DNA of 19,439 bases from a virus (lineage: Duplodnaviria; Heunggongvirae; Uroviricota; Caudoviricetes), in the IMG/VR virus record IMGVR_UViG_2925903241_000001, positions 1-19,439 of that record; one strand, given 5' to 3'. A program made the position numbers and the translations under genes. Shown piece by piece: positions 1 through 19,439 of this stretch (its first letter is position 1; the number at the start of each line of letters is the position of its first letter). The notes under the pieces were generated by a model. The model did no database searches and was not told the DNA's origin. It saw only the letters and a list, made by a program, of their open reading frames with translations.

Positions 1-1011
1 TTATAACGTCACTCCGCCTTTTAGTGGATTCAGAGCGACGGCATTTTGCAGATAGTCAGGCGCAAGGTGCGCATAGGCCATCGTCTGCTGAATGCTCGCA
101 TGTCCCAGAATCTGTTGCAGTGCGATTATATTGCCCCCATTCATCATGAAATGGCTTGCGAATGTATGCCGCAGGATGTGGGTTGCCTGATTGGGTGGTA
201 TATCAGGTTTCACTCTGCGTAAAATCCCGCAAAATTTCTCATAATCAACTTTGAATAATTTGGCGCTGGCCTCCTCTTTAACTTTTTTCTCCAGTTCCTC
301 AGAAATCGGCACGGTTCGCTTTTTACCGTTTTTGGTTTTCAGGAAGGTAACCCTGCAATTTGTAATCTGTGCTGGTTTTAGCGTGGCAACTTCCGTCCAT
401 CTTCCTCCGGTGCTCAGACATAAAAGCGCGACAAGTAAGTCATCACCAGCCAAAACATTTAACAGTTTTTCGATTTCTGCTTTTTCCAGGAACGTCATTT
501 CAGGGTTGGCCTCCGCCAGTGGCGGCAGTCCGTGAATTGGGTGTTGCCCGGAAAATTCATCCAATTGAATTAATTTTGTGAACATGCCGGATAATCGGTA
601 CATGTCACGGTTTATCGTTGCGGCACTGATACCATCACGTAGTCGCATGGAACGATAATCCATCAAAGCCCTTTTGCTCATCCTGCTCACTGGTATATCA
701 CCTATGCCGCTGATGGTTTTGAGTAGATGATTAAACTCTTTTGTTCCATGCTCGTGGTTTTGCCCGTGATATTTCCACCAGATGTCCAGCAACTCACTCA
801 AAGTCCGGCGGTCTGCTCGCTGGCCTCCCCATTCTTTCTGACTGGCATTGGCGATTGTGTATCGCTCAAATGCTAGTGCTTCAGCTTTTCTTTCGAATTT
901 CCTGCGGATGCGTTTTCCGTCGCGACCGCGAGGTCTAATGTCCACTTCATAGCGACCATCATCGAGCTTCTTAATTGCCATAAGAAAGCCCTCCGGCGCT
1001 GTATTCACCAT
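1..1011 (-). CDS. int: P2-like phage integrase (tyrosine recombinase)
   Basis: 336-aa minus-strand ORF with stop at 1-3. Internal stretch MAIKKLDDGRYEVDIRP matches the P2 Int N-terminus as I recall it, so the true start may be the internal ATG near 981. C-terminal ...HxLRHTFAS...ILGH...YAH resembles the tyrosine-recombinase catalytic motifs. Sits at the prophage left end, transcribed leftward with the repressor as in P2. Confidence 0.9.
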   Translation of the reverse strand: MVNTAPEGFLMAIKKLDDGRYEVDIRPRGRDGKRIRRKFERKAEALAFERYTIANASQKEWGGQRADRRTLSELLDIWWKYHGQNHEHGTKEFNHLLKTISGIGDIPVSRMSKRALMDYRSMRLRDGISAATINRDMYRLSGMFTKLIQLDEFSGQHPIHGLPPLAEANPEMTFLEKAEIEKLLNVLAGDDLLVALLCLSTGGRWTEVATLKPAQITNCRVTFLKTKNGKKRTVPISEELEKKVKEEASAKLFKVDYEKFCGILRRVKPDIPPNQATHILRHTFASHFMMNGGNIIALQQILGHASIQQTMAYAHLAPDYLQNAVALNPLKGGVTL

Positions 1012-1050
1012 CTTGGTAGCAAATGGTGAAAATGTAATCTTTATATAGAG

Positions 1051-1344
1051 TTAGCCAATCCTTTTCGCGGAGTGGTTGGACTCTGTTGACTCTGGCCCAA
1101 TGTGCGCGAGAGCCGGTGCGATTTGTCCTGCGTCCGGCGCGGTTTTATCTGTCATAAGCCATAGAGCATATTTTTGGAATGTGGGATGCATAGTGATTTT
1201 TAGCAAAGCTGTGCCACCGGGTTCAAAGTTTCCTCCTTCATATTTTTTAAGTGTGCTTAGCGGTAACTCTATGATTTCACAGAATTTTGATTGGCTTAGC
1301 CCTTCAGCCTCACGCAAGGCCTTAATCTTTTCGCTTAATTTCAT
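1051..1344 (-). CDS. P2 C-like immunity repressor (small HTH protein)
   Basis: 97-aa ORF directly upstream of int on the same strand. C-terminal GQIAPALAH motif is shared with P2 C as I recall it. The N-terminus differs from P2 C, suggesting a different immunity type. Confidence 0.75.
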   Translation of the reverse strand: MKLSEKIKALREAEGLSQSKFCEIIELPLSTLKKYEGGNFEPGGTALLKITMHPTFQKYALWLMTDKTAPDAGQIAPALAHIGPESTESNHSAKRIG

Positions 1345-1465
1345 TTGACATGGTGCCTATATAGGGACTAAATCCCCTCAAAACTGGAACCTATATAGGT
1401 TCCATTGATTTGAGAATAAACCAGCATCTAAACGGTTTTGAGTGGTTTAGAAAGGGCTGGATCCT
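1345..1465. promoter_or_regulatory. Divergent early promoter/operator switch region between the repressor and cox
   Basis: 121-bp intergenic region between divergently oriented genes. Contains TTGACA at 1345-1350 abutting the repressor start codon, the palindrome CCTATATAGG at 1356-1365, and a perfect 18-bp palindrome GGAACCTATATAGGTTCC at 1387-1404. Exact -10/-35 assignment is not resolved by eye. Confidence 0.5.
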
Positions 1466-1480
1466 ATGAGGGTACCATAT

Positions 1481-1753
1481 ATGGACGCTGAAAATTATGT
1501 GATTCAGTATCCGCTTGATGCGGTTCATGTGGATAAATTTGCTGATTTATTAGGGAAGCCAAAGACAGCCGTCAGTGAAATGGTGAAGGCAAATAAATTA
1601 CCAATTATTGAATTGCGTGATCCTTGCAAACCGAAGGCTCGTGCCGGTGAAAAATGGGTTTTCATTCCTGAGTTTAATCGCGCTGTACGTGAGGCGTTTT
1701 ATAACCGACCGGTTGAACAGCGTGATGCATGGCTTTTGTGGATGGGGTTGTGA
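1481..1753 (+). CDS. cox: Cox-like excisionase / early regulator
   Basis: First rightward gene after the switch region. The ORF track starts at 1466, but the ATG at 1481 has a GAGGG Shine-Dalgarno about 9 nt upstream and gives 90 aa, close to P2 Cox. Product has the pattern ...GKLP.I...AG..WV..P.. ending ...WLLWMGL, similar to P2 Cox ...WLMWLGL from memory. Confidence 0.6.
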   Translation: MDAENYVIQYPLDAVHVDKFADLLGKPKTAVSEMVKANKLPIIELRDPCKPKARAGEKWVFIPEFNRAVREAFYNRPVEQRDAWLLWMGL

Positions 1754-1755
1754 TT

Positions 1756-1926
1756 ATGAATGAGCCGCGTTGTATTGCTCAGTTATTGCGTAACGAAAGC
1801 CCCAGGGCGATTGACTTCACCATCACCCACGGTAAGGGGCGTAAGGGAATCATTATCCGCACCAAAAAACAGAGTCCGTTAAAAAAGGCTCTGACCTTTC
1901 TGAAAAGCCGGAGGGTATGGAAATGA
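1756..1926 (+). CDS. Small hypothetical early protein (position of P2 orf78)
   Basis: ORF track gives 1729..1926; the ATG at 1756 (MNEPRCIAQLL...) avoids overlap with cox. Assignment is positional only. Confidence 0.35.
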   Translation: MNEPRCIAQLLRNESPRAIDFTITHGKGRKGIIIRTKKQSPLKKALTFLKSRRVWK

Positions 1927-2423
1927 CAGTGATGACGCTCAATCTCGTTGAAAAACAGCCAGCAGCTATGCGCCGGATAATTGGCAAGCATCTTGCCGTC
2001 CCTCGCTGGCAGGATACATGTGATTATTATAATCAGATGATGGAGCGCGAACGGCTAACGGTTTGCTTTCATGCACAGTTAAAACAGCGTCACGCAACGA
2101 TGCGTTTTGAAGAAATGAACGACGTCGAACGTGAACGACTGGTTTGTGCAATTGATGAATTGCGTGGCGCATTCTCAAAACGCCGTCAGGTCGGCGCAAG
2201 TGAGTATGCATATATTAGTTTTTTAACAGTCAGTCAGCGTCGTACTTTATTTATGCATGCGGGATTGACAGAAAAAGAATTCAATCAGCCGTACTGGCGA
2301 ATTAATGAAGAATCATGTTACTGGCGTGATGCTTTATTCCGTGCATTACGTGAATTATTCAGTCTGTTTGAGTATGCACCGACAATTCTGACGTCGGTAA
2401 AACCAGAGCAATATCTGCATTAA
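1917..2423 (+). CDS. P2 gpB-like early replication protein (tentative)
   Basis: 168-aa ORF at the position and size of P2 gene B (about 166 aa from memory) between cox and the small orf80-83-like genes. Based on synteny and size, not sequence recall. Confidence 0.5.
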   Translation: MEMTVMTLNLVEKQPAAMRRIIGKHLAVPRWQDTCDYYNQMMERERLTVCFHAQLKQRHATMRFEEMNDVERERLVCAIDELRGAFSKRRQVGASEYAYISFLTVSQRRTLFMHAGLTEKEFNQPYWRINEESCYWRDALFRALRELFSLFEYAPTILTSVKPEQYLH

Positions 2424-2486: not shown

Positions 2487-2711
2487 ATGCATACAGTTTC
2501 TGAAAATCAGTGCGGTAAATACGCATTACTGCTGCAACAGGCCAGAACCGAAGCACAGGCCGACGCTGCGACGCGCTTTTCTTCTCATCTTGACGCCATG
2601 ATTCGCCACATCACAAAGGCGGAGTTATCCCGCGTGGAGATAGTTGAGCTGCTCAGTCAGGAGTCGGAAAAATTTCACAATATCGGATTGTCTCGCGGGG
2701 AGGTGCTTTGA
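2487..2711 (+). CDS. Hypothetical early protein (P2 orf80 position)
   Basis: 74-aa ORF; its stop overlaps the next start (ATGA), indicating translational coupling within the early operon. Confidence 0.5.
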
Positions 2712-3013
2712 TGTCCTGTTCTCGTTCGGTTGTATTACTGAATAACGCCTTAAAAATCGCCGTTATGAAAAATGGTGATTTGTCTCTTATTCAACTTGGT
2801 ATTGATAAAGAGAAGCGCGAAATAACTGAATCTGTTATCGCGATTTATCAGAGTGAATTAAACCTCCTGTCTGATGTGGTCAATTTACTTGTTAAACGCG
2901 CTGTATTCCACAAGCAAATTTCCTCAGTGGATGAACTGACAAAATTAACGACAGAACTCGCCAGTTATTGCGCTGATGAATTTAAGAAGCTGAACGACAA
3001 AAGGAGCTGGTAA
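2708..3013 (+). CDS. Hypothetical early protein, AT-rich (P2 orf81 position)
   Basis: 101-aa ORF, visibly AT-richer than its neighbours. Tightly packed with the flanking genes (ATGA overlap upstream, the next start abuts its stop). Confidence 0.5.
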
Positions 3014-3237
3014 TGCCGGACAACGTGGATTTTATTCAGGAACAACAGGCTGAATTACTGGAGCGCCAGATTAACGCGGCAAGGGTAAAACATTGCGGTG
3101 TTTCTGCGCTGGTTTGCGAAGAGTGTGACGCGCCAATACCTGCTGCCCGTCGTGCGGCTTATCCGTCAGCCACGCGTTGTGTTTCCTGTCAGTCAGTCTT
3201 TGAAGCAAAAAACAAACATTACCGGAGAACGGCATGA
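3013..3237 (+). CDS. TraR/DksA-family C4 zinc-finger protein (P2 orf82-like)
   Basis: 74-aa product with CxxC...CxxC arrangement (C-E-E-C ... C-V-S-C) typical of phage TraR/DksA-like zinc fingers. Confidence 0.7.
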   Translation: MPDNVDFIQEQQAELLERQINAARVKHCGVSALVCEECDAPIPAARRAAYPSATRCVSCQSVFEAKNKHYRRTA

Positions 3238-3509
3238 GTATTCGTATTGAAATTGGCGAACGTTATGTCGTTACCAGTGACAGCTTTCAGTTTATTCTCC
3301 ACGAGAAAAAGAGAGCGGAAAGCGGTAAAAACGCCGGTCAGGAATGGCTGGCGGTGGTTGGTTATTACCCGAAATTAGGCCAGCTCGTTTCCGGCCTGAT
3401 GCATCACGATATTCTGACCGGAAGCGCAAAATCTTTTGCTGATTTAAACGCGCAGGTTGAGCAACTCAGCAAGCGTTGTTCAGAGGCTTTTGGCTCATAT
3501 GGCCGTTAA
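3234..3509 (+). CDS. Hypothetical early protein (P2 orf83 position)
   Basis: 91-aa ORF; its stop at 3507-3509 overlaps the A start codon at 3499. Confidence 0.55.
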   Translation: MSIRIEIGERYVVTSDSFQFILHEKKRAESGKNAGQEWLAVVGYYPKLGQLVSGLMHHDILTGSAKSFADLNAQVEQLSKRCSEAFGSYGR

Positions 3510-4869
3510 AGCCTCCGGGCGTTTTGTCCCTCCGTCAGCATTTACCGCAGGCACCGGTAAGGCGTTTACCGGTGCTTATGCATGGAACGCGCCACGCGAG
3601 GCTGTCGGGCGCGAAAGACCTCTTACACGTGACGAGATGCGTCAGGTGCAAGGTGTTTTATCCACGATTAACCGCCTGCCTTACTTTTTGCGCTCGCTGT
3701 TTACTTCACGCTATGACTACATCCGGCGCAATAAAAGCCCGGTGCACGGGTTTTATTTCCTCACATCTACTTTTCAGCGTCGTTTATGGCCGCGCATTGA
3801 GCGTGTGAATCAGCGCCATGAAATGAACACCGACGCGTCGTTGCTGTTTCTGGCAGAGCGTGACCACTATGCGCGCCTGCCGGGAATGAATGACAAGGAG
3901 CTGAAAAAGTTTGCCGCCCGTATCTCATCGCAGCTTTTCATGATGTATGAGGAACTCTGCGATGCATGGGTTGATGCGCATGGTGAAAAAGAATCGCTGT
4001 TTACGGATGAGGCGCAGGCTCACCTGTATGGTCATGTTGCTGGCGCTGCACGTGCTTTCAATATTTCCCCGCTCTACTGGAAAAAATACCGTAAAGGACA
4101 GATGACCACGAGGCAGGCATATTCTGCCATTGCCCGCCTGTTTAACGATGAGTGGTGGACTCATCAGCTTAAAGGCCAGCGTATGCGCTGGCATGAGGCG
4201 TTACTGATAGCTGTCGGGGAGGTCAATAAAGACCGTTCTCCTTATGCCAGTAAACACGCCATTCGTGATGTGCGTGCGCGCCGCCAGGCAAATCTGGAAT
4301 TTCTTAAATCGTGTGACCTTGAAAACAGGGAAACCGGCGAGCGCATCGACCTTATCAGTAAGGTGATGGGCAGTATTTCTAATCCTGAAATTCGCCGGAT
4401 GGAGCTGATGAACACCATTGCCGGTATTGAGCGTTACGCCGCCGCAGAGGGTGATGTGGGGATGTTTATCACGCTGACCGCGCCGTCAAAGTATCACCCG
4501 ACACGTCAGGTCGGAAAAGGCGAAAGTAAAACCGTTCAGCTTAATCACGGCTGGAACGATGAGGCATTTAATCCAAAGGATGCGCAGCGTTATCTCTGCC
4601 GTATCTGGAGCCTGATGCGCACGGCATTCAAGGATAATGATTTACAGGTCTACGGTTTGCGAGTCGTCGAGCCACACCACGACGGAACGCCGCACTGGCA
4701 TATGATGCTTTTTTGTCATCCACGCCAGCGTAACCAGATTATCGAAATCATGCGTCGCTATGCGCTCAAAGAGGATGGCGACGAAAGAGGTGCGTATTTT
4801 CATGAAAGGAGATCACTCAATAACTTCCATCGAGATCGGGTAATAACATTTGAACAGATCGCTGAATAA
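3499..4869 (+). pseudogene. A: Replication initiation endonuclease gpA (rolling-circle HUH nickase), 3' truncated by IS21-family insertion
   Basis: Likely start at MAVKASGRFVPP (3499), which is the P2 gpA N-terminus as I recall it. Phage-derived coding runs to about 4790 (roughly 431 codons, versus about 761 aa for P2 gpA). The final 25 codons of the ORF (...AYFHERRSLNNFHRDRVITFEQIAE) read into the IS terminal repeat. HUH motif PHWHMM is retained near aa 405-410. Confidence 0.85.
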
Positions 4870-4983
4870 CATCGATGGAGATCACTTTTGACTCATTTTG
4901 TTATTCAGTGATCTCCATCAATGTTATTGGAACTTCACAGGTGTGTTGATCTGTATCTTTTGCCATTCCGGTAAAGGATACCT

Positions 4984-6525
4984 ATGCCAACAGTTCCAAT
5001 TTCTATGAGAAAACTTAAAGAAATTCTTAGGCTTAAATACGGTGTTGGACTCAGCCATCGACAAATTGGTCGTAGTCTTGCAATCTCCCCTTCCGTTGTA
5101 TCCAGATATGCTAATCGGGCGGCTCAACTTGGCATAAAGCAGTGGCCCTTACCTACAGGATGGGATGATACAAAACTAAAACATGCGTTCCTTCAGACCC
5201 AGGTTAAGATGAAGAAGCACTCTCTGCCTGACTGGGCTACAGTACACCGGGAACTGCGTAATAAATGCGTGACGCTGCAGCTACTCTGGGAAGAATACTG
5301 TGAGCGTAATCCAGGCGGTTTTTACAGCTATAACCATTACTGCCGGATGTACCGTGAATGGCTCAAAACCACTTCACCATCAATGCGTCAGGTACATAAA
5401 GCTGGCGAAAAACTTTTCGTTGATTACTGTGGACCTACCGTTGGCGTTACCGACCCTGAGACCGGAGAAATAAGAACTGCTCAGGTCATCGTAGCTGTTC
5501 TCGGGGCATCAAGTTACACATGGGCAGAGGCCACCTGGTCTCAGCAGCTTGAAGACTGGGTGATGAGTCATGTTCGCTGCTTCCAGTGGTTGGGTGGCGT
5601 TCCTGAACTTGTTGTTCCGGACAATCTGAAAAGCGCCACATCCAGGGCATGTAAGTATGATCCTGACGTTAACCCTACCTACCAGCAGATGCTTGAGCAT
5701 TATAATGTCGCAGTTTTGCCTGCGCGGCCACGTAAACCGAAAGATAAAGCCAAAGCTGAAGTTGGCGTTCAGGTTGTTGAACGCTGGATCATGGCCCGAA
5801 TCAGGCATGAGATCTTCTACAGCCTTGCATCGCTTAATCAGCGCATTCGGGAGTTGCTGGAAAGACTGAATAACAAAATAATGCAGAAGTTGGGTTATTC
5901 ACGTGCAGAACTCTTCATCCAGCTTGATAAACCCGCACTGAAGCCTCTTCCTGAAGCCAGTTACAGTTACACCCTGGTGAAGAAAGTCAGAGTTCATGCC
6001 GATTACCACGTGGAAATCGACAAACATTACTACTCGGTTCCATGTTCGCTGTTAGGCCAGCAACTGGAAGCATGGATCTCCGGAGAACTGGTAAGACTCT
6101 TCAATCAGGGGCAGGAGGTTGCTGTGCACCCGCGCAAGCGTACTTATGGCTACAGTACCCGCAACGAGCACATGCCTGAAGCTCATCGACAGCATGCCAC
6201 CTGGACGCCAGAGCGTCTTCTGGAATGGGCGGGGCACATAGGCAGTGAAACTCATAGTTATGTGCTTCATATACTGAACTCTCGTCCACATCCGGAACAA
6301 AGCTATCGCTTCTGCCTTGGACTCCTGAACCTTCATAAAAAATACAGTAAAGCCAGACTTAATGCAGCATGTGCAAGAGCTCTGGAAACAAAGGTATGGC
6401 GTCTGTCAGGTATTAAATCGATCCTGGAAAAAGGTCTGGATAAACAACCTGTTCAGGATCCAAAACCAGATCTGTTATCCACGATGGAACACGAAAACGT
6501 ACGCGGCAGTGAGTATTACCACTGA
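4984..6525 (+). CDS. istA: IS21-family transposase IstA
   Basis: 513-aa ORF with N-terminal HTH-like region (LSHRQIGRSLAISPSVVSRYANRA) and a central integrase-type core, immediately followed by istB. Shine-Dalgarno AGGATA upstream. Confidence 0.9.
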   Translation: MPTVPISMRKLKEILRLKYGVGLSHRQIGRSLAISPSVVSRYANRAAQLGIKQWPLPTGWDDTKLKHAFLQTQVKMKKHSLPDWATVHRELRNKCVTLQLLWEEYCERNPGGFYSYNHYCRMYREWLKTTSPSMRQVHKAGEKLFVDYCGPTVGVTDPETGEIRTAQVIVAVLGASSYTWAEATWSQQLEDWVMSHVRCFQWLGGVPELVVPDNLKSATSRACKYDPDVNPTYQQMLEHYNVAVLPARPRKPKDKAKAEVGVQVVERWIMARIRHEIFYSLASLNQRIRELLERLNNKIMQKLGYSRAELFIQLDKPALKPLPEASYSYTLVKKVRVHADYHVEIDKHYYSVPCSLLGQQLEAWISGELVRLFNQGQEVAVHPRKRTYGYSTRNEHMPEAHRQHATWTPERLLEWAGHIGSETHSYVLHILNSRPHPEQSYRFCLGLLNLHKKYSKARLNAACARALETKVWRLSGIKSILEKGLDKQPVQDPKPDLLSTMEHENVRGSEYYH

Positions 6526-6536
6526 TACGGGATCCA

Positions 6537-7286
6537 ATGATGAATCATCTTTACGAACAACTGACCGCACTTAAACTCACCGGCTTCCGTGATGCGCTTA
6601 AAAAGCAACTTGCTCAACCGGGCACATACCAGGAGCTGGGCTTCGAAGAACGCCTGTCATTACTGACAGCAGAAGAACTAACCTGCCGTGAAAACAGGAA
6701 GGCAGAGCGTCTGATCAAACATGCACGGTTCAGACTTAATGCTGAGTTATCAAAGCTGGATTATCGTAACAATAGAGGGCTGGACAGGGCCCTCATCCGT
6801 TCACTCAGTCAGGGAAACTGGTTAACCCTGAAACAAAATATTTTACTGACCGGGGCCACCGGCAGCGGTAAAACGTTCCTGGCATGTGCACTTGGTCATA
6901 ATGCCTGCCGACAGGGATACAAGGTCTACTATTATCGCCTTAAAGCGCTGATGGAACAGTGCTATCAGGGGCATGCTGATGGAAGATACAGCAAACTTTT
7001 GACCAGGCTGAATAATAGCGATCTGCTGCTTCTGGATGACTGGGGGCTGGAACCTCTCTCATCAGAACAGCGTAGCGACCTGCTGGAAATAGTGGATCTG
7101 ATGTACCAACGAGGCTCAATCATCGTAGTGAGCCAGTTGCCGGTGGAAAACTGGTACAAAATGATCGGAGACTCCACACATGCGGATGCCATCCTAGATC
7201 GACTGGTTCATGGCAGTATCAAGATCGAACTTAAAGGAGAATCAATGCGGAAAATACAATCTCCGTTGACCGAAGGAGATCAGTGA
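6537..7286 (+). CDS. istB: IS21-family ATP-binding helper protein IstB
   Basis: 249-aa ORF with Walker A GATGSGKT and Walker B-like LLLLDDWG, 11 bp downstream of istA. Confidence 0.9.
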   Translation: MMNHLYEQLTALKLTGFRDALKKQLAQPGTYQELGFEERLSLLTAEELTCRENRKAERLIKHARFRLNAELSKLDYRNNRGLDRALIRSLSQGNWLTLKQNILLTGATGSGKTFLACALGHNACRQGYKVYYYRLKALMEQCYQGHADGRYSKLLTRLNNSDLLLLDDWGLEPLSSEQRSDLLEIVDLMYQRGSIIVVSQLPVENWYKMIGDSTHADAILDRLVHGSIKIELKGESMRKIQSPLTEGDQ

Positions 7287-7411
7287 AGGTAATTTAAAAA
7301 CGGTTCTGTGAAAGTGACACGAACCGATCTCCATCGATGTTACTCACCGATCTCCTTCACGGTAATACGCAAAGGCCACGGAACAGGCACACCAACGGGT
7401 AATACAGAGCC

Positions 7412-7437: not shown

Positions 7438-7517
7438 TGCAGAGATAACGGGCAAGTGGCATCATCTCCGGTTTTTATTCAGGGGGATGCTCATGCTTAT
7501 TGGCTATGTACGCGTGT

Positions 7518-11799: not shown

Positions 11800-11811
11800 G
11801 GAGCCTGACCG

Positions 11812-12386: not shown

Positions 12387-12662
12387 ATGAACAAAGAAAA
12401 TGTGATTACCCTGGACAATCCGGTCAAACGTGGTGAGCAGGTTATCGAACAGGTCACGCTGATGAAACCCAGTGCCGGGACGCTGCGCGGTGTCAGTCTG
12501 GCAGCGGTCGCAAACTCCGAAGTCGATGCACTGATTAAGGTGTTGCCGCGCATGACGGCACCGATGCTGACCGAGCAGGAAGTCGCCGCACTGGAACTGC
12601 CTGACCTTGTGGCGCTGGCCGGTAAGGTGGTCGGTTTTTTGTCGCCGAACTCGGTGCAGTGA
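12387..12662 (+). CDS. E: Tail assembly chaperone gpE
   Basis: 91-aa ORF between FII and T, same length as P2 E; contains the slippery heptamer T-TTT-TTG near its 3' end. Confidence 0.88.
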   Translation: MNKENVITLDNPVKRGEQVIEQVTLMKPSAGTLRGVSLAAVANSEVDALIKVLPRMTAPMLTEQEVAALELPDLVALAGKVVGFLSPNSVQ

Positions 12663-12814
12663 CGTTTCCGAAAAATCTCTCGGTCGATGACCTGATGGCG
12701 GATGTGGCAGTGATATTTCACTGGCCGCCATCAGAACTGTATCCCATGAGCCTGACCGAACTCATCACATGGCGCGAAAAGGCGCTCCGGCGAAGCGGAA
12801 ACACGAATGAGTAA
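12387..12814 (+). CDS. Tail assembly chaperone gpE+E' produced by programmed -1 frameshift
   Basis: Slippery site T TTT TTG at 12635-12641 in the E frame. The -1 frame from 12641 is open to TAA at 12812-14 and encodes VAELGAVTFPKNLSVDDLMADVAVIFHWPPSELYPMSLTELITWREKALRRSGNTNE. Fusion is 85 + 57 = 142 aa, equal to the P2 E+E' size as I recall. Stop overlaps the T start. Confidence 0.8.
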
Positions 12815-15254
12815 CAATGTAAAATTACAGGTATTGCTCAGGGCTGTTGACCAGGCATCCCGTCCGTTTAAATCCATCCGCACAGCGAGCAAATCGCTGT
12901 CGGGGGATATCCGGGAAACACAAAAATCACTGCGCGAGCTGAACGGTCAGGCATCCCGTATTGAGGGATTTCGCAAGACCAGTGCACAGCTCGCCGTGAC
13001 TGGTCATGCACTTGAAAAGGCACGGCAGGAGGCCGAAGCCCTTGCCACACAGTTTAAAAACACCGAACGTCCGACACGTGCTCAGGCGAAAGTGCTGGAA
13101 TCCGCGAAGCGTGCGGCGGAGGACTTACAGGCGAAATATAACCGCCTGACGGATTCCGTTAAACGCCAGCAGCGGGAACTGGCCGCTGTGGGAATTAATA
13201 CCCGCAATCTTGCACATGATGAGCAGGGACTGAAAAACCGTATCAGTGAAACCACCGCACAGCTTAACCGTCAGCGTGATGCGCTGGCGCGTGTCAGTGC
13301 GCAACAGGCAAAACTTAACGCAGTCAAACAGCGTTATCAGGCCGGAAAGGAACTGGCCGGAAATATAGCCTCAGTGGGCGCTGCCGGTGTGGGGATTGCG
13401 GCGGCGGGAACGATGGCCGGAGTTAAGCTGCTGATGCCCGGTTATGAGTTTGAGCAGAAAAACTCAGAATTGCAGGCCGTGCTCGGAGTGGCAAAAGACT
13501 CCGCCGAAATGACCGCACTCCGCAAGCAGGCGCGCCAGCTTGGCGACAACACCGCCGCCTCGGCGGATGATGCAGCCGGTGCGCAGATTATCATTGCGAA
13601 AGCCGGCGGGGATGTTGATGCCATTCAGGCGGCAACGCCGGTCACGCTGAATATGGCGCTGGCGAACCGTCGCACGATGGAAGAAAACGCCGCCCTGTTG
13701 ATGGGGATGAAATCCGCCTTTCAGCTTTCAAACGATAAGGTCGCTCATATCGGGGATGTTCTCTCCATGACGATGAACAAAACCGCCGCCGATTTTGACG
13801 GCATGAGCGATGCGCTGACCTATGCCGCACCTGTGGCAAAAAATGCCGGTGTCAGCATTGAAGAAACCGCCGCAATGGTCGGGGCACTGCATGATGCAAA
13901 AATTACCGGTTCAATGGCGGGGACGGGAAGCCGTGCCGTGTTAAGCCGCCTGCAGGCACCGACGGGAAAAGCATGGGATGCACTGAAAGAGCTTGGTGTG
14001 AAAACCTCAGACAGCAAGGGAAACACCCGACCAGTATTTACCATTCTGAAAGAAATGCAGGCCAGTTTTGAGAAAAACCGGCTCGGTACTGCCCAGCAGG
14101 CTGAATACATGAAAACTATTTTCGGGGAGGAGGCCAGCTCAGCCGCCGCCGTGCTGATGACTGCCGCCTCAACCGGAAAGCTGGACAAACTGACCGCTGC
14201 GTTTAAAGCCTCAGACGGGAAGACCGCCGAGCTGGTAAATATCATGCAGGACAACCTCGGCGGTGACTTTAAGGAGTTTCAGTCTGCTTATGAGGCGGTG
14301 GGGACTGACCTGTTTGACCAGCAGGAAGGCGCACTGCGTAATCTCACGCAGACGGCCACAAAGTATGTGTTAAAACTCGACGGCTGGATCAAGAAAAACA
14401 AATCACTGGCGTCAACCATCGGCCTCATTGTCGGTGGCGCACTGGCGCTTACTGGCATCATCGGTGCCATTGGTCTTGTCGCCTGGCCGGTTATCACCGG
14501 CATCAATGCCATCATCGCGGCAGCAGGCGCAATGGGGGCAGTCTTCACGACGGTTGGCAGTGCTGTTATGACCGCCATCGGGGCTATTAGCTGGCCGGTT
14601 GTGGCCGTGGTGGCCGCAATTGTCGCCGGGGCGTTGCTTATCCGTAAATACTGGGAGCCTGTCAGCGCATTCTTTGGCGGTGTGGTTGAAGGGCTGAAAG
14701 TGGCATTTGCGCCGGTGGGGGAACTGTTCACGCCACTTAAGCCGGTGTTTGACTGGCTGGGTGAAAAGTTACAGGCCGCGTGGCAGTGGTTTAAAAACCT
14801 GATTGCCCCGGTCAAAGCCACTCAGGACACCCTGAACCGTTGCCGTGACACGGGGGTCATGTTCGGGCAGGCACTGGCTGACGCGCTGATGCTGCCGCTT
14901 AATGCGTTCAACAAACTGCGCAGTGGTATTGACTGGGTACTGGAAAAACTCGGTGTTATCAACAAAGAGTCAGACACACTTGACCAGACCGCCGCCAGAA
15001 CTCAAGCCGCCACGTATGGCCGCGGTGGTTATATTCCGGCGACCAGCTCTTATGCAGGTTATCAGGCTTATCAGCCGGTCACGGCACCGGCTGGCCGCTC
15101 TTATGTAGACCAGAGTAAAAACGAATATCACATCAGCCTGACGGGTGGTACTGCGCCGGGGACACAGCTCGACCGCCAGTTACAGGATGCGCTCGAAAAA
15201 TACGAGCGGGATAAACGTGCGCGCGCCCGTGCCAGCATGATGCATGACGGTTAA
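12807..15254 (+). CDS. T: Tail tape measure protein gpT
   Basis: 815-aa ORF (P2 T is 815 aa from memory) with coiled-coil N-terminal region and hydrophobic Gly/Ala-rich segments typical of tape measure proteins; directly follows E/E'. Confidence 0.93.
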   Translation: MSNNVKLQVLLRAVDQASRPFKSIRTASKSLSGDIRETQKSLRELNGQASRIEGFRKTSAQLAVTGHALEKARQEAEALATQFKNTERPTRAQAKVLESAKRAAEDLQAKYNRLTDSVKRQQRELAAVGINTRNLAHDEQGLKNRISETTAQLNRQRDALARVSAQQAKLNAVKQRYQAGKELAGNIASVGAAGVGIAAAGTMAGVKLLMPGYEFEQKNSELQAVLGVAKDSAEMTALRKQARQLGDNTAASADDAAGAQIIIAKAGGDVDAIQAATPVTLNMALANRRTMEENAALLMGMKSAFQLSNDKVAHIGDVLSMTMNKTAADFDGMSDALTYAAPVAKNAGVSIEETAAMVGALHDAKITGSMAGTGSRAVLSRLQAPTGKAWDALKELGVKTSDSKGNTRPVFTILKEMQASFEKNRLGTAQQAEYMKTIFGEEASSAAAVLMTAASTGKLDKLTAAFKASDGKTAELVNIMQDNLGGDFKEFQSAYEAVGTDLFDQQEGALRNLTQTATKYVLKLDGWIKKNKSLASTIGLIVGGALALTGIIGAIGLVAWPVITGINAIIAAAGAMGAVFTTVGSAVMTAIGAISWPVVAVVAAIVAGALLIRKYWEPVSAFFGGVVEGLKVAFAPVGELFTPLKPVFDWLGEKLQAAWQWFKNLIAPVKATQDTLNRCRDTGVMFGQALADALMLPLNAFNKLRSGIDWVLEKLGVINKESDTLDQTAARTQAATYGRGGYIPATSSYAGYQAYQPVTAPAGRSYVDQSKNEYHISLTGGTAPGTQLDRQLQDALEKYERDKRARARASMMHDG

Positions 15255-15268
15255 GGAGGTGACGAAAA

Positions 15269-15748
15269 ATGATGCTCGCGTTAGGTATGTTTGTTTTTAT
15301 GCGCCAGACGCTGCCACACCAGACCATGCAGCGTGAATCAGATTATCGCTGGCCGTCAAATTCCCGTATCGGTAAACGGGACGCTTTTCAGTTTCTCGGT
15401 GTGGGTGAGGAAAACATCACGCTTGCCGGTGTGCTTTATCCCGAACTGACCGGCGGCAAGCTGACGATGACCACGCTCAGGCTGATGGCAGAGGAGGGGC
15501 GGGCGTGGCCGTTGCTGGATGGCACCGGCATGATTTACGGCATGTATGTCATCAGCAAGGTGAGTGAAACAGGGAGTATTTTCTTTGCAGACGGCACACC
15601 CCGGAAAATTGATTTTACGCTGTCGCTCACCCGCGTTGATGAATCACTGGCCGCGCTTTATGGCGATATCGGTAAACAGGCGGAATCGCTCATCGGTAAG
15701 GCTGGCAGTATGGCGACTAAATTCACGGGTATGACGGGGGCGGGATAA
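15269..15748 (+). CDS. U: Tail protein gpU
   Basis: 159-aa ORF after T, same size and position as P2 U; GGAGG Shine-Dalgarno upstream. Confidence 0.9.
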   Translation: MMLALGMFVFMRQTLPHQTMQRESDYRWPSNSRIGKRDAFQFLGVGEENITLAGVLYPELTGGKLTMTTLRLMAEEGRAWPLLDGTGMIYGMYVISKVSETGSIFFADGTPRKIDFTLSLTRVDESLAALYGDIGKQAESLIGKAGSMATKFTGMTGAG

Positions 15749-16911
15749 TGCTGGATGCACTGACATTTGATGCAGGCAGTACGCTGACGCCGGATTACAT
15801 GCTGATGCTCGACAGCAGGGATATTACCGGCAATATCAGCGACCGTCTGATGAGCATGACCCTGACGGATAACCGGGGCTTTGAGGCTGACCAGCTTGAT
15901 ATTGAACTGAACGATGCCGACGGGCAGGTCGGACTACCGATTCGTGGCGCTGTCCTGACGGTGTATATCGGCTGGAAAGGTTTTGCCCTGGTATGCAAAG
16001 GGAAATTTACCGTTGATGAGGTTGAACACCGGGGCGCACCGGATGTGGTCACCATCCGCGCCCGGAGTGCAGATTTTCGCGGGACGCTCAATTCCCGCCG
16101 TGAAGGCTCATGGCATGACACCACGCTCGGTGCGATTGTTGAGGCGATAGCCTCCCGTAACAGGCTGGAAGCCAGTGTCGCTCCGTCACTGGCCGGAATT
16201 AAAATCCCGCACATCGACCAGTCGCAGGAGTCTGATGCGAAATTTCTGACCCGTCTTGCAGAACGCAACGGCGGTGAGGTGTCGGTAAAAATGGGAAAAC
16301 TGCTGTTTCTCAAAGCGGGGCAGGGGGTGACGGCCAGCGGTAAAAAAATCCCGCAGGTCACCATCACCCGCAGCGACGGTGACCGCCATCATTTTGCGAT
16401 TGCTGACCGTGGAGCCTACACCGGCGTAACGGCAAAGTGGTTACACACCAAAGACCCGAAGCCGCAAAAGCAGAAGGTAAAACTGAAACGCAAAAAGAAA
16501 GAGAAACACCTGCGCGCACTGGAGCACCCGAAAGCGAAACCGGTCACGCAGAAGAAAGCGCCAAAAGTACCGGAAGCGCGCGAAGGTGAATACATGGCAG
16601 GTGAGGCTGACAATGTTTTTGCCCTGACTACGGTATATGCCACGAAAGCGCAGGCCATGCGCGCCGCTCAGGCGAAGTGGGATAAACTGCAACGGGGCGT
16701 TGCGGAGTTCTCCATCAGCCTGGCTACCGGTCGGGCTGATATTTACACGGAAACACCGGTTAAAGTGTCAGGCTTTAAGCGCGTCATAGACGAGCAGGAC
16801 TGGACAATCACTAAGGTGACACATTTTCTGAATAATAGCGGCTTCACGACGTCCTTAGAGCTTGAGGTCAGGCTTTCTGATGTGGAGTACGAAACAGAAG
16901 ATGATGAGTGA
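15748..16911 (+). CDS. D: Tail protein gpD (late control D family)
   Basis: 387-aa ORF overlapping the U stop (ATAATG), same length as P2 D; includes a Lys-rich low-complexity segment (KPQKQKVKLKRKKKEK). Confidence 0.9.
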   Translation: MLDALTFDAGSTLTPDYMLMLDSRDITGNISDRLMSMTLTDNRGFEADQLDIELNDADGQVGLPIRGAVLTVYIGWKGFALVCKGKFTVDEVEHRGAPDVVTIRARSADFRGTLNSRREGSWHDTTLGAIVEAIASRNRLEASVAPSLAGIKIPHIDQSQESDAKFLTRLAERNGGEVSVKMGKLLFLKAGQGVTASGKKIPQVTITRSDGDRHHFAIADRGAYTGVTAKWLHTKDPKPQKQKVKLKRKKKEKHLRALEHPKAKPVTQKKAPKVPEAREGEYMAGEADNVFALTTVYATKAQAMRAAQAKWDKLQRGVAEFSISLATGRADIYTETPVKVSGFKRVIDEQDWTITKVTHFLNNSGFTTSLELEVRLSDVEYETEDDE

Positions 16912-16992: not shown

Positions 16993-17211
16993 ATGTTTCA
17001 TTGTCCTTTATGCCAGCATGCCGCACATGCGCGTACAAGTCGCTATATTACTGACACGACAAAAGAGCGTTATCACCAGTGTCAGAACGTGAATTGCAGC
17101 GCCACGTTCATCACTTATGAGTCGGTACAGCGATACATCGTGAAACCGGGAGAAGTCCACGCCGTAAGGCCGCACCCGTTGCCGTCAGGGCAGCAAATTA
17201 TGTGGATGTAA
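16993..17211 (+). CDS. ogr: Late transcription activator Ogr (zinc-finger)
   Basis: 72 aa from the internal ATG at 16993: MFHCPLCQHAAHARTSRYITDTTKERYHQCQNVNCSATFITYES..., with the CxxC-N22-CxxxxC zinc-binding pattern and the P2 Ogr length. The ORF track's 93-aa version from 16930 is a likely over-extension. Shine-Dalgarno GAAGAGG upstream of 16993. Confidence 0.9.
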   Translation: MFHCPLCQHAAHARTSRYITDTTKERYHQCQNVNCSATFITYESVQRYIVKPGEVHAVRPHPLPSGQQIMWM

Positions 17212-17236: not shown

Positions 17237-17283
17237 TGTACTGCACCCATTTTGTTGGACGATGAAATGGAATAGCCCCTAAT

Positions 17284-17805
17284 ATGTCAAAGCCAAAATA
17301 CCCTTTTGAAAAGCGCCTTGAAGTCGTGAATCACTACTTCACAACTGATGATGGTTACAGGATCATCTCGGCACGTTTTGGTGTCCCCCGAACCCAGGTC
17401 AGGACATGGGTTGCCCTCTATGAAAAACATGGAGAAAAAGGTTTAATTCCCAAACCTAAAGGCGTTAGTGCTGATCCAGAGTTGCGTATTAAGGTCGTGA
17501 AAGCTGTGATCGAGCAGCACATGTCCCTTAATCAGGCTGCTGCTCACTTTATGCTTGCTGGTAGTGGTTCTGTAGCCAGGTGGCTGAAGGTCTATGAAGA
17601 GCGCGGAGAAGCTGGTTTACGCGCGCTCAAGATTGGCACCAAAAGAAACATTGCAATATCAGTTGATCCAGAAAAAGCGGCATCAGCATTGGAGCTGTCA
17701 AAAGACCGACGCATTGAGGATCTTGAAAGGCAAGTTCGATTTCTTGAAACGCGGCTTATGTATCTAAAAAAGCTGAAAGCCTTAGCTCATCCCACGAAAA
17801 AGTGA
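17284..17805 (+). CDS. insJ: IS150 transposase OrfA (InsJ)
   Basis: 173-aa ORF with N-terminal HTH; contains the A AAA AAG frameshift heptamer at 17766-17772 near its 3' end. Confidence 0.92.
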   Translation: MSKPKYPFEKRLEVVNHYFTTDDGYRIISARFGVPRTQVRTWVALYEKHGEKGLIPKPKGVSADPELRIKVVKAVIEQHMSLNQAAAHFMLAGSGSVARWLKVYEERGEAGLRALKIGTKRNIAISVDPEKAASALELSKDRRIEDLERQVRFLETRLMYLKKLKALAHPTKK

Positions 17806-18653
17806 AAGTACTCAACGAGCTAAGGCAGTTTTATCCTCTTGATGAGCTTCTCAGGGCTGCGGAGATACCGCGCAGTACGTTTTATTATCATCTAAAGGCT
17901 CTCAGCAAGCCTGACAAGTATGCGGACGTTAAAAAGCGTATTAGTGAGATTTATCACGAGAATAGAGGCCGATACGGATACCGTAGGGTAACGCTGTCTC
18001 TTCATCGAGAAGGGAAACAGATTAACCATAAAGCTGTTCAGCGCCTGATGGGAACCCTCTCACTTAAAGCAGCGATTAAGGTCAAGCGATACCGCTCTTA
18101 CAGAGGAGAGGTAGGGCAAACCGCCCCTAATGTTCTCCAAAGAGATTTCAAGGCTACGCGGCCAAACGAGAAGTGGGTTACCGATGTTACTGAATTTGCA
18201 GTCAATGGGCGCAAGCTGTATTTGTCTCCAGTAATAGATCTCTTCAACAACGAAGTTATTTCTTACAGCCTTTCGGAAAGACCAGTGATGAACATGGTTG
18301 AGAATATGCTCGATCAGGCATTCAAAAAGCTTAATCCTCACGAGCATCCTGTTCTGCACTCTGACCAGGGATGGCAGTATCGTATGAGAAGATATCAAAA
18401 TATCCTTAAAGAACATGGTATTAAACAAAGCATGTCCAGAAAAGGCAATTGTCTGGATAATGCTGTGGTGGAGTGTTTCTTTGGAACCTTAAAGTCGGAG
18501 TGTTTTTATCTTGATGAGTTCAGTAATATAAGCGAACTGAAGGATGCTGTTACGGAATATATTGAATACTACAACAGCAGAAGAATTAGCCTGAAATTAA
18601 AAGGTCTGACTCCAATTGAATATCGGAATCAGACCTATATGCCTCGTGTTTAA
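17802..18653 (+). CDS. insK: IS150 transposase OrfB (InsK), DDE catalytic domain; expressed mainly as an InsJK fusion by -1 frameshift
   Basis: 283-aa ORF in the -1 frame relative to insJ, with an IS3-family integrase-core DDE region (...WVTDVTEF...HSDQGWQY...). Confidence 0.92.
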
Positions 18654-18797
18654 CTGTCCAACTTTTTGGGGTCAGTACATCGAGGGGCTTTCTGTTTTGG
18701 GGAATATTCTTCATTAAAAGTAGTGGATCACGTTTAATAAACTATGTTTATCATATACTTAAAAGTCAATCTTTAAAGTTGGACAGGTTGGTGGAAA

Positions 18798-19439
18798 ATG
18801 GAAAAAGTTATAATTGAGCTTGATAATCGTTGGGAGTTAGCTGATTTCGCGGTCTTAACGAAAGAGTATTTGCAGCTATATGGTTTTTTTTATGGCCTAA
18901 AAGGAGGATCAAGAGGATATTCAACAATGCCTTGGGAGGGTGGGCACAGTGTGGTGAACTTTTTTAGAGGGGCTTACAGTGCGACTCCACCAGATTTACG
19001 TCCTGTAGTGAAAAAAATTCAGTATGCCTCTCCTGGCTTTATTGAATTGTCTGCTCTTATTGATATCTCTTGGCAGATTGCTGAGTTAGTTACTGCTGTT
19101 GGTGGAAGTATTCTGGCTGCCAACAAAGTTTACGATCAGGTGATGCGTACATATCGACAAAGAGAATGGGCAAAGTTGAAATCAGAGAAGCTGCGTATAC
19201 AGAATCAAATTAAAGAGATTGAACTTGTTTCTGACGCAGTTAAATCACTTGAATCTGTGATGGCACTTAGTGAAGAACAACGTAAAAACTTGGTTCAACT
19301 ATCGGGGGCAGATGAACTGGTTCAGTTAAAGATACTTTTGGCTGTTTACCGACGGTTATCTCCTCTTGTTGAGTTGCAAAACAGCGGGAAAGCTAATTTT
19401 TCTGCTGGGAAAAATAAAAATTTAAAAGCGTCCGATTAA
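18798..19439 (+). CDS. Hypothetical protein (unassigned), complete, in AT-rich DNA
   Basis: 213-aa ORF with ATG at 18798, GGTGG Shine-Dalgarno-like sequence upstream and TAA at 19437-19439. Base composition is clearly AT-richer than the phage block. C-terminal half is predicted helical/coiled-coil (KLKSEKLRIQNQIKEIELVSDAVKSLESVMALSEEQRKNL). No family recognised by eye. Confidence 0.55.
   Translation: MEKVIIELDNRWELADFAVLTKEYLQLYGFFYGLKGGSRGYSTMPWEGGHSVVNFFRGAYSATPPDLRPVVKKIQYASPGFIELSALIDISWQIAELVTAVGGSILAANKVYDQVMRTYRQREWAKLKSEKLRIQNQIKEIELVSDAVKSLESVMALSEEQRKNLVQLSGADELVQLKILLAVYRRLSPLVELQNSGKANFSAGKNKNLKASD

What the first reader, a model, noticed from the sequence alone, without database searches (positions are those of the whole stretch)
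1..19439. P2-like prophage reduced to its two arms, with three IS families within 17 kb
The early arm (int to the 5' part of A) and the late-tail arm (invertase, FI to ogr) are joined directly, so roughly two thirds of a P2-type genome is missing: the rest of A, the tin/old position, cos, terminase, capsid, lysis, baseplate and tail-fibre genes. The remaining ORFs appear uninterrupted by eye and the tail-block sizes match P2 as I recall them, which suggests recent decay. Sheath, tube, tape measure, U and D are retained without any baseplate or fibres, so this is not a tailocin-like unit.
Basis: partly seen in the sequence, partly recalled or inferred. Interest (0 to 1): 0.45.

Follow-up and report, generated by a model that had tools for sequence, protein, structure and literature searches.

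The report
IS-eroded P2-type prophage remnant
This is a dead P2-type virus in the chromosome of the E. coli ST167 clone that was first hit by three jumping genes and then lost about 58% of its DNA in a deletion starting exactly at the end of one of them; it is an ordinary kind of prophage decay, but every intermediate stage survives in sister strains.

Summary
The window is 100% identical to E. coli ST167 chromosomes and is a P2-type prophage between cpxP and fieF.

- **What remains:** int to the first 431 codons of A, and FI to ogr. Every retained phage ORF is full length.
- **ISEc12 (IS21 family, 4791-7371):** sits at the deletion and has no target duplication.
- **ISEc22 (IS66 family, 7526-9980):** a simple insertion with an 8-bp duplication.
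- **IS150 (17237-18679):** a simple insertion with a 3-bp duplication in the ogr terminator loop.
- **Ancestral state:** 42 sister genomes carry the same prophage with all three IS but at full length. Strain M217 has no mismatch to the window.
- **The deletion:** the window lineage lacks 18,552 bp, starting at the last base of ISEc12.
- **Recurrence:** two other deletions (17,185 and 11,911 bp) start at the same base in other genomes. No second-copy intermediate exists at the window endpoint.

ISEc12 itself is therefore the likely deletion engine, by IS21-type intramolecular transposition. The decay is recent, the junctions are not an assembly artefact, and the unit is not tailocin-like. This is a known kind of event and of modest interest.

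The parts
1..981 (-). Integrase (326 aa by PGAP; the longer ORF runs to 1011). It is 52% identical to P2 Int, and the window begins at its stop codon.
1051..1344 (-). C-type immunity repressor (97 aa). It is 43% identical to P2 C and matches 64 of 97 residues of the prophage at the same site in strain Ecol_224, so it is a different immunity type.
1481..1753 (+). Cox (excisionase and repressor of Pc), 45% identical to P2 Cox.
1756..1926 (+). orf78-like small ORF. It is intact but not annotated by PGAP in this genome.
1923..2423 (+). Gene B homologue (166 aa, 501 nt as in P2).
2487..3509 (+). orf80, orf81, orf82 (TraR/DksA zinc finger) and orf83 homologues. All four are the same lengths as in P2.
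3499..4790 (+). The 5' 1292 nt of replication gene A (codons 1-431 of about 760, 98% identical to P2 A). The HUH-type motif is kept. The 3' part is lost; in P2 that part carries the ori nick site, 1859 nt into A.
4791..7371 (+). ISEc12 (IS21 family, 2581 bp; istA 4984-6525, istB 6537-7286; ends TGCGTATT...AATACGCA). Its left flank keeps AGAGG, one copy of the original 5-bp duplication. Its right flank is new DNA, so there is no target duplication. It sits exactly at the deletion.
7372..7465 (-). The first 94 nt of the inverted tail-fibre variable gene. This is the only fibre remnant.
7412..7440 (.). The surviving invertase crossover site (TTCTCCCAAACCAACGTTTATGAAAATGC). Its inverted partner, at L006 36759-36787 in strain M217, has been deleted.
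7493..7525 (+). Invertase codons 1-11 (MLIGYVRVSTN), which include the catalytic-serine motif.
7526..9980 (+). ISEc22 (IS66 family, 2455 bp; tnpA 7607-8011, tnpB 8008-8355, tnpC 8404-9939; ends GTAAGCG...CGCTTAC). It is a simple insertion with the 8-bp duplication CAACAAAT at 7518-7525 and 9981-9988. PGAP marks tnpC as frameshifted; the shift alters only about the last 8 residues.
9989..10549 (+). Invertase codons 12-197. Joined to 7493-7525 it gives an intact 197-aa Hin/Gin/Pin-type recombinase. The PGAP ORF 9947-10549 starts inside the ISEc22 end and lacks the serine motif.
10518..10608 (+). Late promoter PF region. The Ogr-type activator site (TGT-N12-CCA) is conserved with P2 17561-17578.
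10609..12330 (+). FI tail sheath (396 aa, 98% identical to P2) and FII tail tube (172 aa).
12387..12814 (+). E and E+E' tail assembly chaperones. Bases 12620-12830 are identical to P2 19663-19873, including the slippery GGTTTTTTG.
12807..16911 (+). T tape measure (815 aa, 98%), U (159 aa) and D (387 aa, 99%).
16993..17211 (+). ogr late-gene activator (72 aa, 100% identical to P2 Ogr).
17237..18679 (+). IS150 (IS3 family, 1443 bp; orfA 17284-17805, orfB 17802-18653). It is a simple insertion in the loop of the ogr/F-operon terminator, with the 3-bp duplication TCG at 17234-17236 and 18680-18682.
18798..19439 (+). A 213-aa low-GC cargo ORF inside the prophage, between the ogr terminator and the Int arm site and attR. 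It has no Pfam match. PADLOC gives PD-T4-10_B at E=1e-34. No partner ORF is present.

Best explanation
The window is a defective P2-type prophage of the E. coli ST167 lineage. It is integrated at a 47-bp core that overlaps the cpxP terminator, between cpxP and fieF.

**Shown: the sequence of events**
1. The prophage was first hit by three simple IS insertions.
   - ISEc12 entered replication gene A, with the 5-bp duplication AGAGG.
   - ISEc22 entered the tail-fibre invertase after codon 11, with an 8-bp duplication.
   - IS150 entered the loop of the ogr terminator, with a 3-bp duplication.
2. That full-length, triple-IS state (38.3 kb from attL to attR) still exists in 42 complete genomes.
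3. In the window lineage, 18,552 bp were then lost. The deletion runs from the last base of the ISEc12 right end to a point inside the inverted tail-fibre gene.
4. The lost DNA held the 3' part of A (which carries ori in P2), a PDC-S28 candidate defence helicase in the tin/old slot, and all head, packaging, lysis, baseplate and fibre genes.

**Inferred: the mechanism**
ISEc12 made the deletion itself, by IS21-type intramolecular transposition. Either its right end or a transient tandem (ISEc12)2 junction attacked a target in the same DNA molecule. The reasons are that two other deletions of different length start at the same base, that no target duplication flanks the IS, and that no second-copy intermediate is found.

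**Inferred from intact sequence only: what the remnant can and cannot do**
- It cannot replicate, package, lyse or build tails.
- It still encodes Int, Cox, the C repressor, Ogr, the PF promoter with FI-D, both att cores and both Int arm sites.
- It could therefore still give immunity to homoimmune phages, could perhaps still excise, and could donate tail or ogr sequences by recombination.
For: - **Identity and site:** the window is 100% identical to SCEC020007 and others and lies between cpxP and fieF. A 47-bp att direct repeat and Int arm sites flank it.
- **P2 type:** gene lengths match P2. Protein identity to P2 is 98-100% for A, FI, T, D and Ogr, and the frameshift site and PF site are conserved.
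- **Junctions and target duplications:**
- **Ancestral state:** M217 carries the same protein accessions and all three IS at full length. It has 0 mismatches to the window. The undeleted right junction occurs in 42 genomes and the left junction in 73.
- **Deletions anchored at the same IS base:** 18,552 bp in the window, 17,185 bp in AR_0162 and 11,911 bp in strain 163.
- **No two-copy intermediate:** 0 of 5426 genomes match a hypothetical second ISEc12 copy at the window endpoint.
- **ISEc12 forms tandem dimers in nature:** dimers with a 2-bp spacer occur in natural genomes.
- **Precedent:** IS21-family tandems and the IS21-family element ISPve1 are reported to cause adjacent, unidirectional deletions (PMC9330008).
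- **Lineage:** strains carrying both the deleted and the undeleted state are listed as ST167 in PMC6392093.
Against: - Homologous recombination between two directly repeated ISEc12 copies would give exactly the same product, and such intermediates could be short-lived.
- I tested for a two-copy intermediate only at the window's endpoint, not at the other two.
- The three deletions could be successive steps rather than independent events. I built no SNP phylogeny.
- No read-level data were examined.
- The retained functions (immunity, excision, Ogr activity) are inferred from intact sequence and were not tested.
- Three of the 73 genomes with the left junction are not classified. One of them has a different rearrangement.
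Confidence: 0.8

Rival explanations
1. The deletion arose by RecA-dependent recombination between the ISEc12 copy in A and a second, directly oriented ISEc12 copy that had inserted into the tail-fibre gene. The other two variants would have arisen the same way from second copies in G and in lysB.
For: The product would be identical: a single IS, the left flank kept, and no target duplication. ISEc12 is multicopy and mobile in these genomes (one search found ISEc12 ends at a median of 4 places per genome that has any, up to 28).
Against: No genome among 5426 has the predicted second-copy junction at the window endpoint. This route needs three separate same-orientation insertions within 7 kb, each followed by recombination, yet 42 genomes show no second copy next to A.
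Confidence: 0.17
2. The IS junctions are assembly chimeras caused by repeat collapse at multicopy IS, and the prophage is really complete.
For: All three junctions lie in multicopy IS, which are classic places for misassembly.
Against: The identical 19.4-kb structure is present at 100% identity in at least 17 independently assembled complete genomes from several countries and hosts. Sister genomes assembled through the same IS give the full-length form. The simple insertions have exact 8-bp and 3-bp target duplications.
Confidence: 0.01
3. The retained sheath, tube, tape-measure, U and D block is a domesticated contractile device (tailocin or injection machine) that has been kept by selection.
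For: FI-D, ogr and the PF promoter are intact and 98-100% identical to P2.
Against: There is no baseplate, spike, fibre, tail-completion (R, S, X) or lysis gene. There are zero substitutions relative to the full-length sister, so there has been no time for purifying selection to be detectable. The deletion endpoints differ between strains.
Confidence: 0.02

Closest known systems
Bacteriophage P2 (NC_001895, Peduovirus)
   Same: The gene order is the same: int-C-cox-orf78-B-orf80-83-A, and FI-FII-E/E'-T-U-D-ogr. Gene lengths are identical. Protein identity is 98-100% for A(1-432), FI, T, D and Ogr. The E/E' slippery site and the PF activator site are conserved.
   Different: - Int, C and Cox are only 43-52% identical, so this phage has a different immunity type and a different att site (cpxP-fieF).
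- The Z/fun slot holds an invertible fibre segment with an invertase.
- The tin/old slot of the ancestor held a PDC-S28 helicase.
- There is an extra 213-aa gene between ogr and attR.
- 58% of the genome is deleted and three IS are inserted.
Cryptic P2 remnants of E. coli K-12 (ogrK/yegZ) and the defective P2-related prophage of E. coli B (recalled from memory, not tested here)
   Same: These are also P2-type prophages reduced to the att-proximal end, with ogr and part or all of the D/tail block. PGAP names the gene here ogrK. BL21 carries a related fibre and invertase segment at about 90% identity (H47).
   Different: This remnant sits at a different chromosomal site. It is far younger, with no mismatch to a full-length sister. 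It keeps the whole early arm, and its deletion mechanism can be read from the junctions.
IS21-family adjacent deletions: (IS21)2 tandems, and ISPve1 of Paracoccus versutus (review PMC9330008)
   Same: The deletions begin exactly at one IS terminus, run in one direction, have variable far endpoints, and leave a single IS without a target duplication. ISEc12 tandem dimers with a 2-bp spacer exist in natural genomes.
   Different: The reported ISPve1 deletions were 0.5-4.5 kb, lay next to the 5' end of the IS, and were seen on a trap plasmid. Here the deletions are 11.9-18.6 kb, lie next to the 3' (istB-side) end, and occur in chromosomes of natural isolates. The mechanism was not demonstrated here.
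Hin/Gin/Pin/Cin tail-fibre inversion systems
   Same: The system has a serine recombinase with an N-terminal MLIGYVRVSTNDQ motif and a C-terminal HTH_7 domain. In the full-length sister, two inverted crossover sites flank about 1.9 kb (1925 nt between the sites) holding alternative fibre C-termini and assembly genes.
   Different: In the window the recombinase gene is split by ISEc22 and one crossover site is deleted, so no inversion is possible.

Membership tests
P2-type (Peduovirus-like) prophage | P2 early-region synteny (int, C, cox, B, orf80-83, A) and F-operon synteny (FI, FII, E, E+E', T, U, D, ogr) | tested here: met
   ORF order and lengths against the P2 record. PGAP names. Protein identities of 98-100% for A, FI, T, D and Ogr.
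P2-type (Peduovirus-like) prophage | Ogr-dependent late promoter and the E/E' -1 frameshift signal | tested here: met
   TGT-N12-CCA upstream of FI is conserved with P2. The slippery site and 211 bp around it are identical to P2.
P2-type (Peduovirus-like) prophage | A complete virion and replication set (cos, Q, P, O, N, M, L, lysis, baseplate, fibres, full A with ori) | tested here: not met
   These are absent from the window and present in the sister strain M217 and in Ecol_224. The window is a remnant, not a functional phage.
P2-type (Peduovirus-like) prophage | Flanking att core repeats with Int arm-type sites | tested here: met
   A 47-bp direct repeat (46 of 47 identical) at L001 5838-5884 and 25522-25568, and arm sites at L001 5967-5985 and 25455-25473. 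All lie outside the window ends except the logic of their position.
IS21 family (ISEc12) | istA (DDE/rve transposase) followed by istB (IstB_IS21 AAA+ helper), with TG...CA ends carrying repeated terminal motifs | tested here: met
   Pfam rve plus Mu-transpos_C_2, and IstB_IS21 at E=2e-67. The ends were aligned. PGAP name.
IS21 family (ISEc12) | A short target-site duplication flanking the element | tested here: not met
   The window copy has flanks AGAGG and AAGGC. The same copy in M217 has the 5-bp duplication AGAGG. The loss of the duplication is the signature of the adjacent deletion, not a reason to doubt the family.
IS66 family (ISEc22) | tnpA-tnpB-tnpC, GTAAGCG terminal repeats and an 8-bp target duplication | tested here: met
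   Pfam HTH_Tnp_1, TnpB_IS66 and DDE_Tnp_IS66 at E=5e-107. The ends and the duplication CAACAAAT.
IS3 family (IS150) | orfA and orfB with a programmed frameshift, TG...CA ends and a 3-bp target duplication | tested here: met
   Pfam HTH_28, and rve plus rve_2. PGAP notes a 'programmed frameshift'. Length 1443 bp with the duplication TCG.
R-type tailocin / contractile-tail bacteriocin | A baseplate, spike, fibres, tail completion and a lysis cassette alongside sheath and tube | tested here: not met
   Only FI, FII, E/E', T, U and D remain.
Hin/Gin/Pin/Cin inversion switch | An intact serine invertase and two inverted crossover sites | tested here: not met
   The gene is split after codon 11. 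One of the two sites is deleted.
PD-T4-10 toxin-antitoxin-like abortive-infection system | Two overlapping genes, A (antitoxin) and B (toxin) (PMC9519451) | tested here: inconclusive
   ORF 18798-19439 matches PD-T4-10_B models at E=1e-34 to 3e-19, but it covers only positions 139-346 of 353 in the best model. No partner ORF of 20 aa or more is plausible in the 115 bp upstream or the 83 bp downstream. The defence function was not tested.

The most novel reading that the evidence does not exclude
ISEc12 may act as a recurrent, strictly one-sided deletion engine in the ST167 high-risk clone. At least three events start at the same right-end base and reach 11.9, 17.2 and 18.6 kb, with none shorter. 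If that size floor is real, it would point to Mu-like, IstB-mediated target immunity around the element. The alternative cause would be selection for loss of the lysis cassette or the PDC-S28 gene. Either way, the 73 genomes would form a natural series for measuring IS21-family intramolecular transposition and the tempo of prophage decay.
Probability: 0.15. Interest if true: 0.5.

Novelty: new member of a known kind. Interest (0 to 1): 0.3.

Why it matters
Defective prophages and IS-driven deletions are both well known, so the remnant itself is ordinary.

What is useful here is the resolution. Within one clinically important clone (NDM-producing ST167), the full-length IS-hit prophage and three differently truncated derivatives coexist with no sequence divergence. 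That allows the order of events (inactivation by insertion, then IS-anchored deletion) and the likely mechanism to be read directly from genomes.

It also shows that the deletion removed a candidate defence gene from the P2 tin/old hotspot while keeping the immunity module and a second candidate defence-like gene. This could change the phage susceptibility of sublineages.

Finally, it gives a caution for annotation. The 'recombinase family protein' called here is a chimeric ORF that starts inside an IS end.

Tried and rejected
- **Whole-genome BLAST against P2:** not possible in the script sandbox, because loci fetched by accession (L002, L004) and L009 under its own name never appeared in /data. 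I used gene-by-gene protein comparisons and direct sequence reads instead.
- **First boundary guess for ISEc22 (7532-9990):** wrong, and it gave a frameshifted invertase reconstruction. Corrected to 7526-9980.
- **'Extra IS insertion' reading:** I first took the 20.8-kb and 26-kb matches to be additional IS insertions. They are shorter deletions.
- **Second-copy ISEc12 intermediate at the window endpoint:** none found.
- **ORF213:** no Pfam family, no tblastn match in 50,697 phage records, and no antitoxin-like partner ORF.
- **PADLOC on B and orf80-83:** no hits.
- **Literature:** the ST167 comparative papers (PMC6392093, PMC7193042) do not mention P2-like, ISEc12, IS150 or cpxP.
- **Promoter and terminator scan of 16900-19439:** nothing above shuffle expectation.
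- **Sampling six unclassified genomes:** four were undeleted, one was the window type, and one had an unrelated rearrangement.

Full report
**1. What the window is**

The 19,439 bases are 100% identical to the chromosome of E. coli SCEC020007 and other strains. PMC6392093 lists SCEC020007, AR_0162, M217, Sanji, ECONIH6 and others as ST167. With 6-kb flanks (L001), the element lies between cpxP and fieF.

A 47-bp direct repeat (46 of 47 identical) that includes the cpxP terminator hairpin lies at L001 5838-5884 and 25522-25568. Int arm-type repeats (TGTGGACnCTATGTGGACA) lie just inside each copy. The prophage is therefore 19,731 bp from attL to attR. The window starts at the int stop codon and ends 83 bp before attR.

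**2. Check of the observation**

The early arm has the P2 order: int, C, cox, an orf78-like ORF, B, orf80-83 and A. The late arm runs FI, FII, E/E', T, U, D and ogr.
- Gene lengths equal those in the P2 record for B, orf80-83 and every F-operon gene.
- Protein identity to P2 is 98% for A residues 1-432, 98% for FI, 98% for T, 99% for D and 100% for Ogr.
- Int, C and Cox are only 52%, 43% and 45% identical. This is a P2-type phage with its own immunity and integration module.
- The E/E' slippery site and 211 bp around it are identical to P2.
- The TGT-N12-CCA activator site of the late promoter PF is conserved.
- Against an intact prophage at the same site in strain Ecol_224, all retained ORFs have the same length and no internal stop.

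Three IS of three families are present (PGAP names, Pfam). Every non-IS base aligns collinearly to the intact relative, so no capsid, terminase, lysis or baseplate gene is hidden in the window.

**3. The junctions**

| Element | Coordinates | Length | Target duplication | Where it sits |
|---|---|---|---|---|
| ISEc12 (IS21 family) | 4791-7371 | 2581 bp | none (left flank ...GAAAGAGG in A, right flank AAGGCCACGG...) | at the deletion, between A' and the inverted fibre gene |
| ISEc22 (IS66 family) | 7526-9980 | 2455 bp | 8 bp, CAACAAAT | inside the invertase, after codon 11 |
| IS150 (IS3 family) | 17237-18679 | 1443 bp | 3 bp, TCG | loop of the ogr/F-operon terminator |

- Joining 7493-7525 to 9989-10549 restores an intact 197-aa Hin/Gin/Pin-type recombinase.
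- Between ISEc12 and the invertase start lie 121 bp. They hold the first 94 nt of the inverted fibre gene and one crossover site (7412-7440). The partner site of that crossover site is deleted.

The arms are therefore not joined directly, and one 'retained' gene is interrupted.

**4. The ancestral state exists**

I built a synthetic query from the ISEc12 right end, AGAGG and the continuation of A. It matched at 100% in many genomes, and 42 genomes hold it in full.

Strain M217 (L006 and L007) has the same protein accessions for int, C, cox, B, orf80-83 and FI-ogr. It also has all three IS at the same positions. In M217, ISEc12 is a simple insertion with the 5-bp duplication AGAGG, and it is followed by:
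- the 3' part of A;
- an 827-aa helicase in the tin/old slot, which matches PADLOC candidate PDC-S28 at E=0 over its full length;
- Q, P, O, N, M, L, X, Y, K, lysA, lysB, lysC, R, S, V, W, J, I, H and G;
- the inverted G' and H' genes.

The window is identical to M217 over 1-7371 and over 7372-19439, with 0 mismatches. It differs only by the absence of 18,552 bp, from L006 20121 (the first base after ISEc12) to L006 38672.

Without the IS, the full phage is about 31.8 kb. So 58% was lost and 13.2 kb remains.

**5. Recurrent deletions at the same IS end**

Two matches that looked like extra insertions are in fact shorter deletions.

| Type | Example | Right flank of ISEc12 | Deletion length |
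|---|---|---|---|
| Window type | SCEC020007 | inverted fibre gene (L006 38673) | 18,552 bp |
| AR_0162 type | AR_0162 (L008) | gene G (L006 37306) | 17,185 bp |
| Strain 163 type | strain 163 (L009) | lysB (L006 32032) | 11,911 bp |

All shared sequence in these strains is 100% identical to the window.

- Among the 25 rows listed, 16 are the window type, 8 the AR_0162 type and 1 the strain 163 type. Several of the window-type rows are re-sequenced Ec-050 derivatives.
- EC16 is also the window type.
- The A::ISEc12 left junction is present in 73 genomes. That is 42 undeleted, 28 covering at least 80% of the window, and 3 others.
- One of those three (11899A_LBHALD) has ISEc12 cut by an IS5 fragment and joined to yhdJ-fis.
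- The junction predicted for a second ISEc12 copy at the window endpoint occurs in 0 of 5426 genomes.

**6. Mechanism**

*Shown:*
- Three deletions of different length share one endpoint, at the terminal base of ISEc12.
- The IS keeps its original left flank.
- The IS has no target duplication.

*Inferred:* the deletions are products of intramolecular transposition by ISEc12. Three lines of support:
- IS21-family elements are reported to form reactive tandem (IS)2 junctions that cause adjacent deletions.
- The IS21-family element ISPve1 gave frequent unidirectional deletions (PMC9330008; PMC9333248).
- ISEc12 does form tandem dimers in nature. Two complete genomes have the right end and left end abutted. 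Strain 4/1-1 shows istA-istB-istA-istB with a 2-bp spacer.

Recombination between two directly repeated copies gives the same product and cannot be excluded. I put it at about 0.17.

Whether the three events are independent or successive is unresolved. There is a weak hint of independence: SCEC020007 shares a SNP branch with the undeleted ECONIH6 and CRE1493, while AR_0162 has a different K and H type (PMC7193042).

**7. What the remnant can still do (inferred from intact sequence, not tested)**

*Lost:*
- The ori nick site, which P2 annotates 1859 nt into A, whereas only 1292 nt remain here.
- The C-terminal 330 residues of A.
- All head, packaging, lysis, baseplate and fibre genes.
- The inversion switch.

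*Kept:*
- C, cox and int, plus both att cores and both Int arm sites.
- ogr, PF and FI-D.
- A 213-aa low-GC ORF between ogr and attR.

Immunity to homoimmune phages, excision, Ogr activity and recombinational donation of tail sequences are all plausible. A tailocin is not.

**8. Comparison and novelty**

The remnant is a member of the P2-type prophages by synteny and identity. It fails the 'complete phage' criterion. It resembles the known P2 remnants of K-12 and B (from memory) but is much younger.

IS-mediated prophage decay and IS21-family adjacent deletions are known kinds of event. The specific case is not mentioned in the ST167 papers I read.

My verdict is that this is ordinary biology, well resolved, and a new member of a known kind. 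Interest is 0.3.

Noticed in passing
window 18798-19439: A 213-aa ORF with 38% GC lies inside the prophage, between the ogr terminator and the Int arm site and attR. This is not one of the two described P2 defence hotspots. It has no Pfam match. PADLOC matches PD-T4-10_B (the toxin of a two-gene abortive-infection system) at E=1e-34, but no partner ORF is present. It has no tblastn match in 50,697 phage records. The same gene sits at the same place in the intact prophage of strain Ecol_224.
   Followed up: partly
L006 21353-23836 (strain M217; deleted from the window): The tin/old hotspot of the full-length sister prophage holds an 827-aa DEAD/DEAH helicase that matches PADLOC candidate PDC-S28 at E=0. 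All three deletion variants lack it, so ST167 sublineages differ in a candidate defence gene.
   Followed up: partly
L009 7672-24152 (strain 163): The 11.9-kb deletion variant keeps lysC, R, S, V, W, J, I, H, G, the invertible segment, FI-D and ogr. It has lost all head genes, X, the holin, the endolysin and lysA. That leaves a nearly complete tail module without heads, which is closer to a tailocin layout than the window is.
   Followed up: no
L016 933-5818 (strain 4/1-1, NZ_CP023844.1): A tandem (ISEc12)2 dimer lies inside a disrupted hypothetical gene. The right and left ends are separated by a 2-bp spacer (ACGCA-AC-TGCGT). A second genome (NZ_OZ501570.1) has the same kind of junction.
   Followed up: partly
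L014 3751-4160 (strain 11899A_LBHALD): In this strain the ISEc12 copy in A is cut off about 100 bp in. An IS5-family fragment follows, and then yhdJ-fis-dusB, which normally lie far away. This indicates a large IS-mediated rearrangement at the same locus.
   Followed up: no
window 9947-10549: The PGAP 'recombinase family protein' (WP_062914736.1) is a chimeric ORF. Its first 12 codons come from the right end of ISEc22, and it lacks the catalytic-serine motif. It is an annotation artefact of the IS insertion.
   Followed up: yes
window about 9912-9916: PGAP marks the ISEc22 tnpC gene as frameshifted in every strain examined. The shift lies in a run of five C near the 3' end and changes only about the last 8 residues (...[10 protein letters not shown] instead of ...[11 protein letters not shown]). 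All four Pfam domains are intact.
   Followed up: partly
window 1-1753 compared with 1923-17211: There is a sharp mosaic boundary. Int, C and Cox are 43-52% identical to P2, while B onward and the tail block are 98-100% identical. C also differs (64 of 97 residues identical) from the prophage at the same att site in Ecol_224. Immunity types therefore vary among prophages that share this integrase and site.
   Followed up: partly
window 17221-17236 and 18680-18695: IS150 sits in the loop of the ogr/F-operon terminator hairpin (AAGCCCCTCAGTCG | IS150 | TCGAGGGGCTT). Late-operon and ogr transcripts would therefore read into IS150, and the 213-aa ORF lies just downstream of the IS150 right end.
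   Followed up: no
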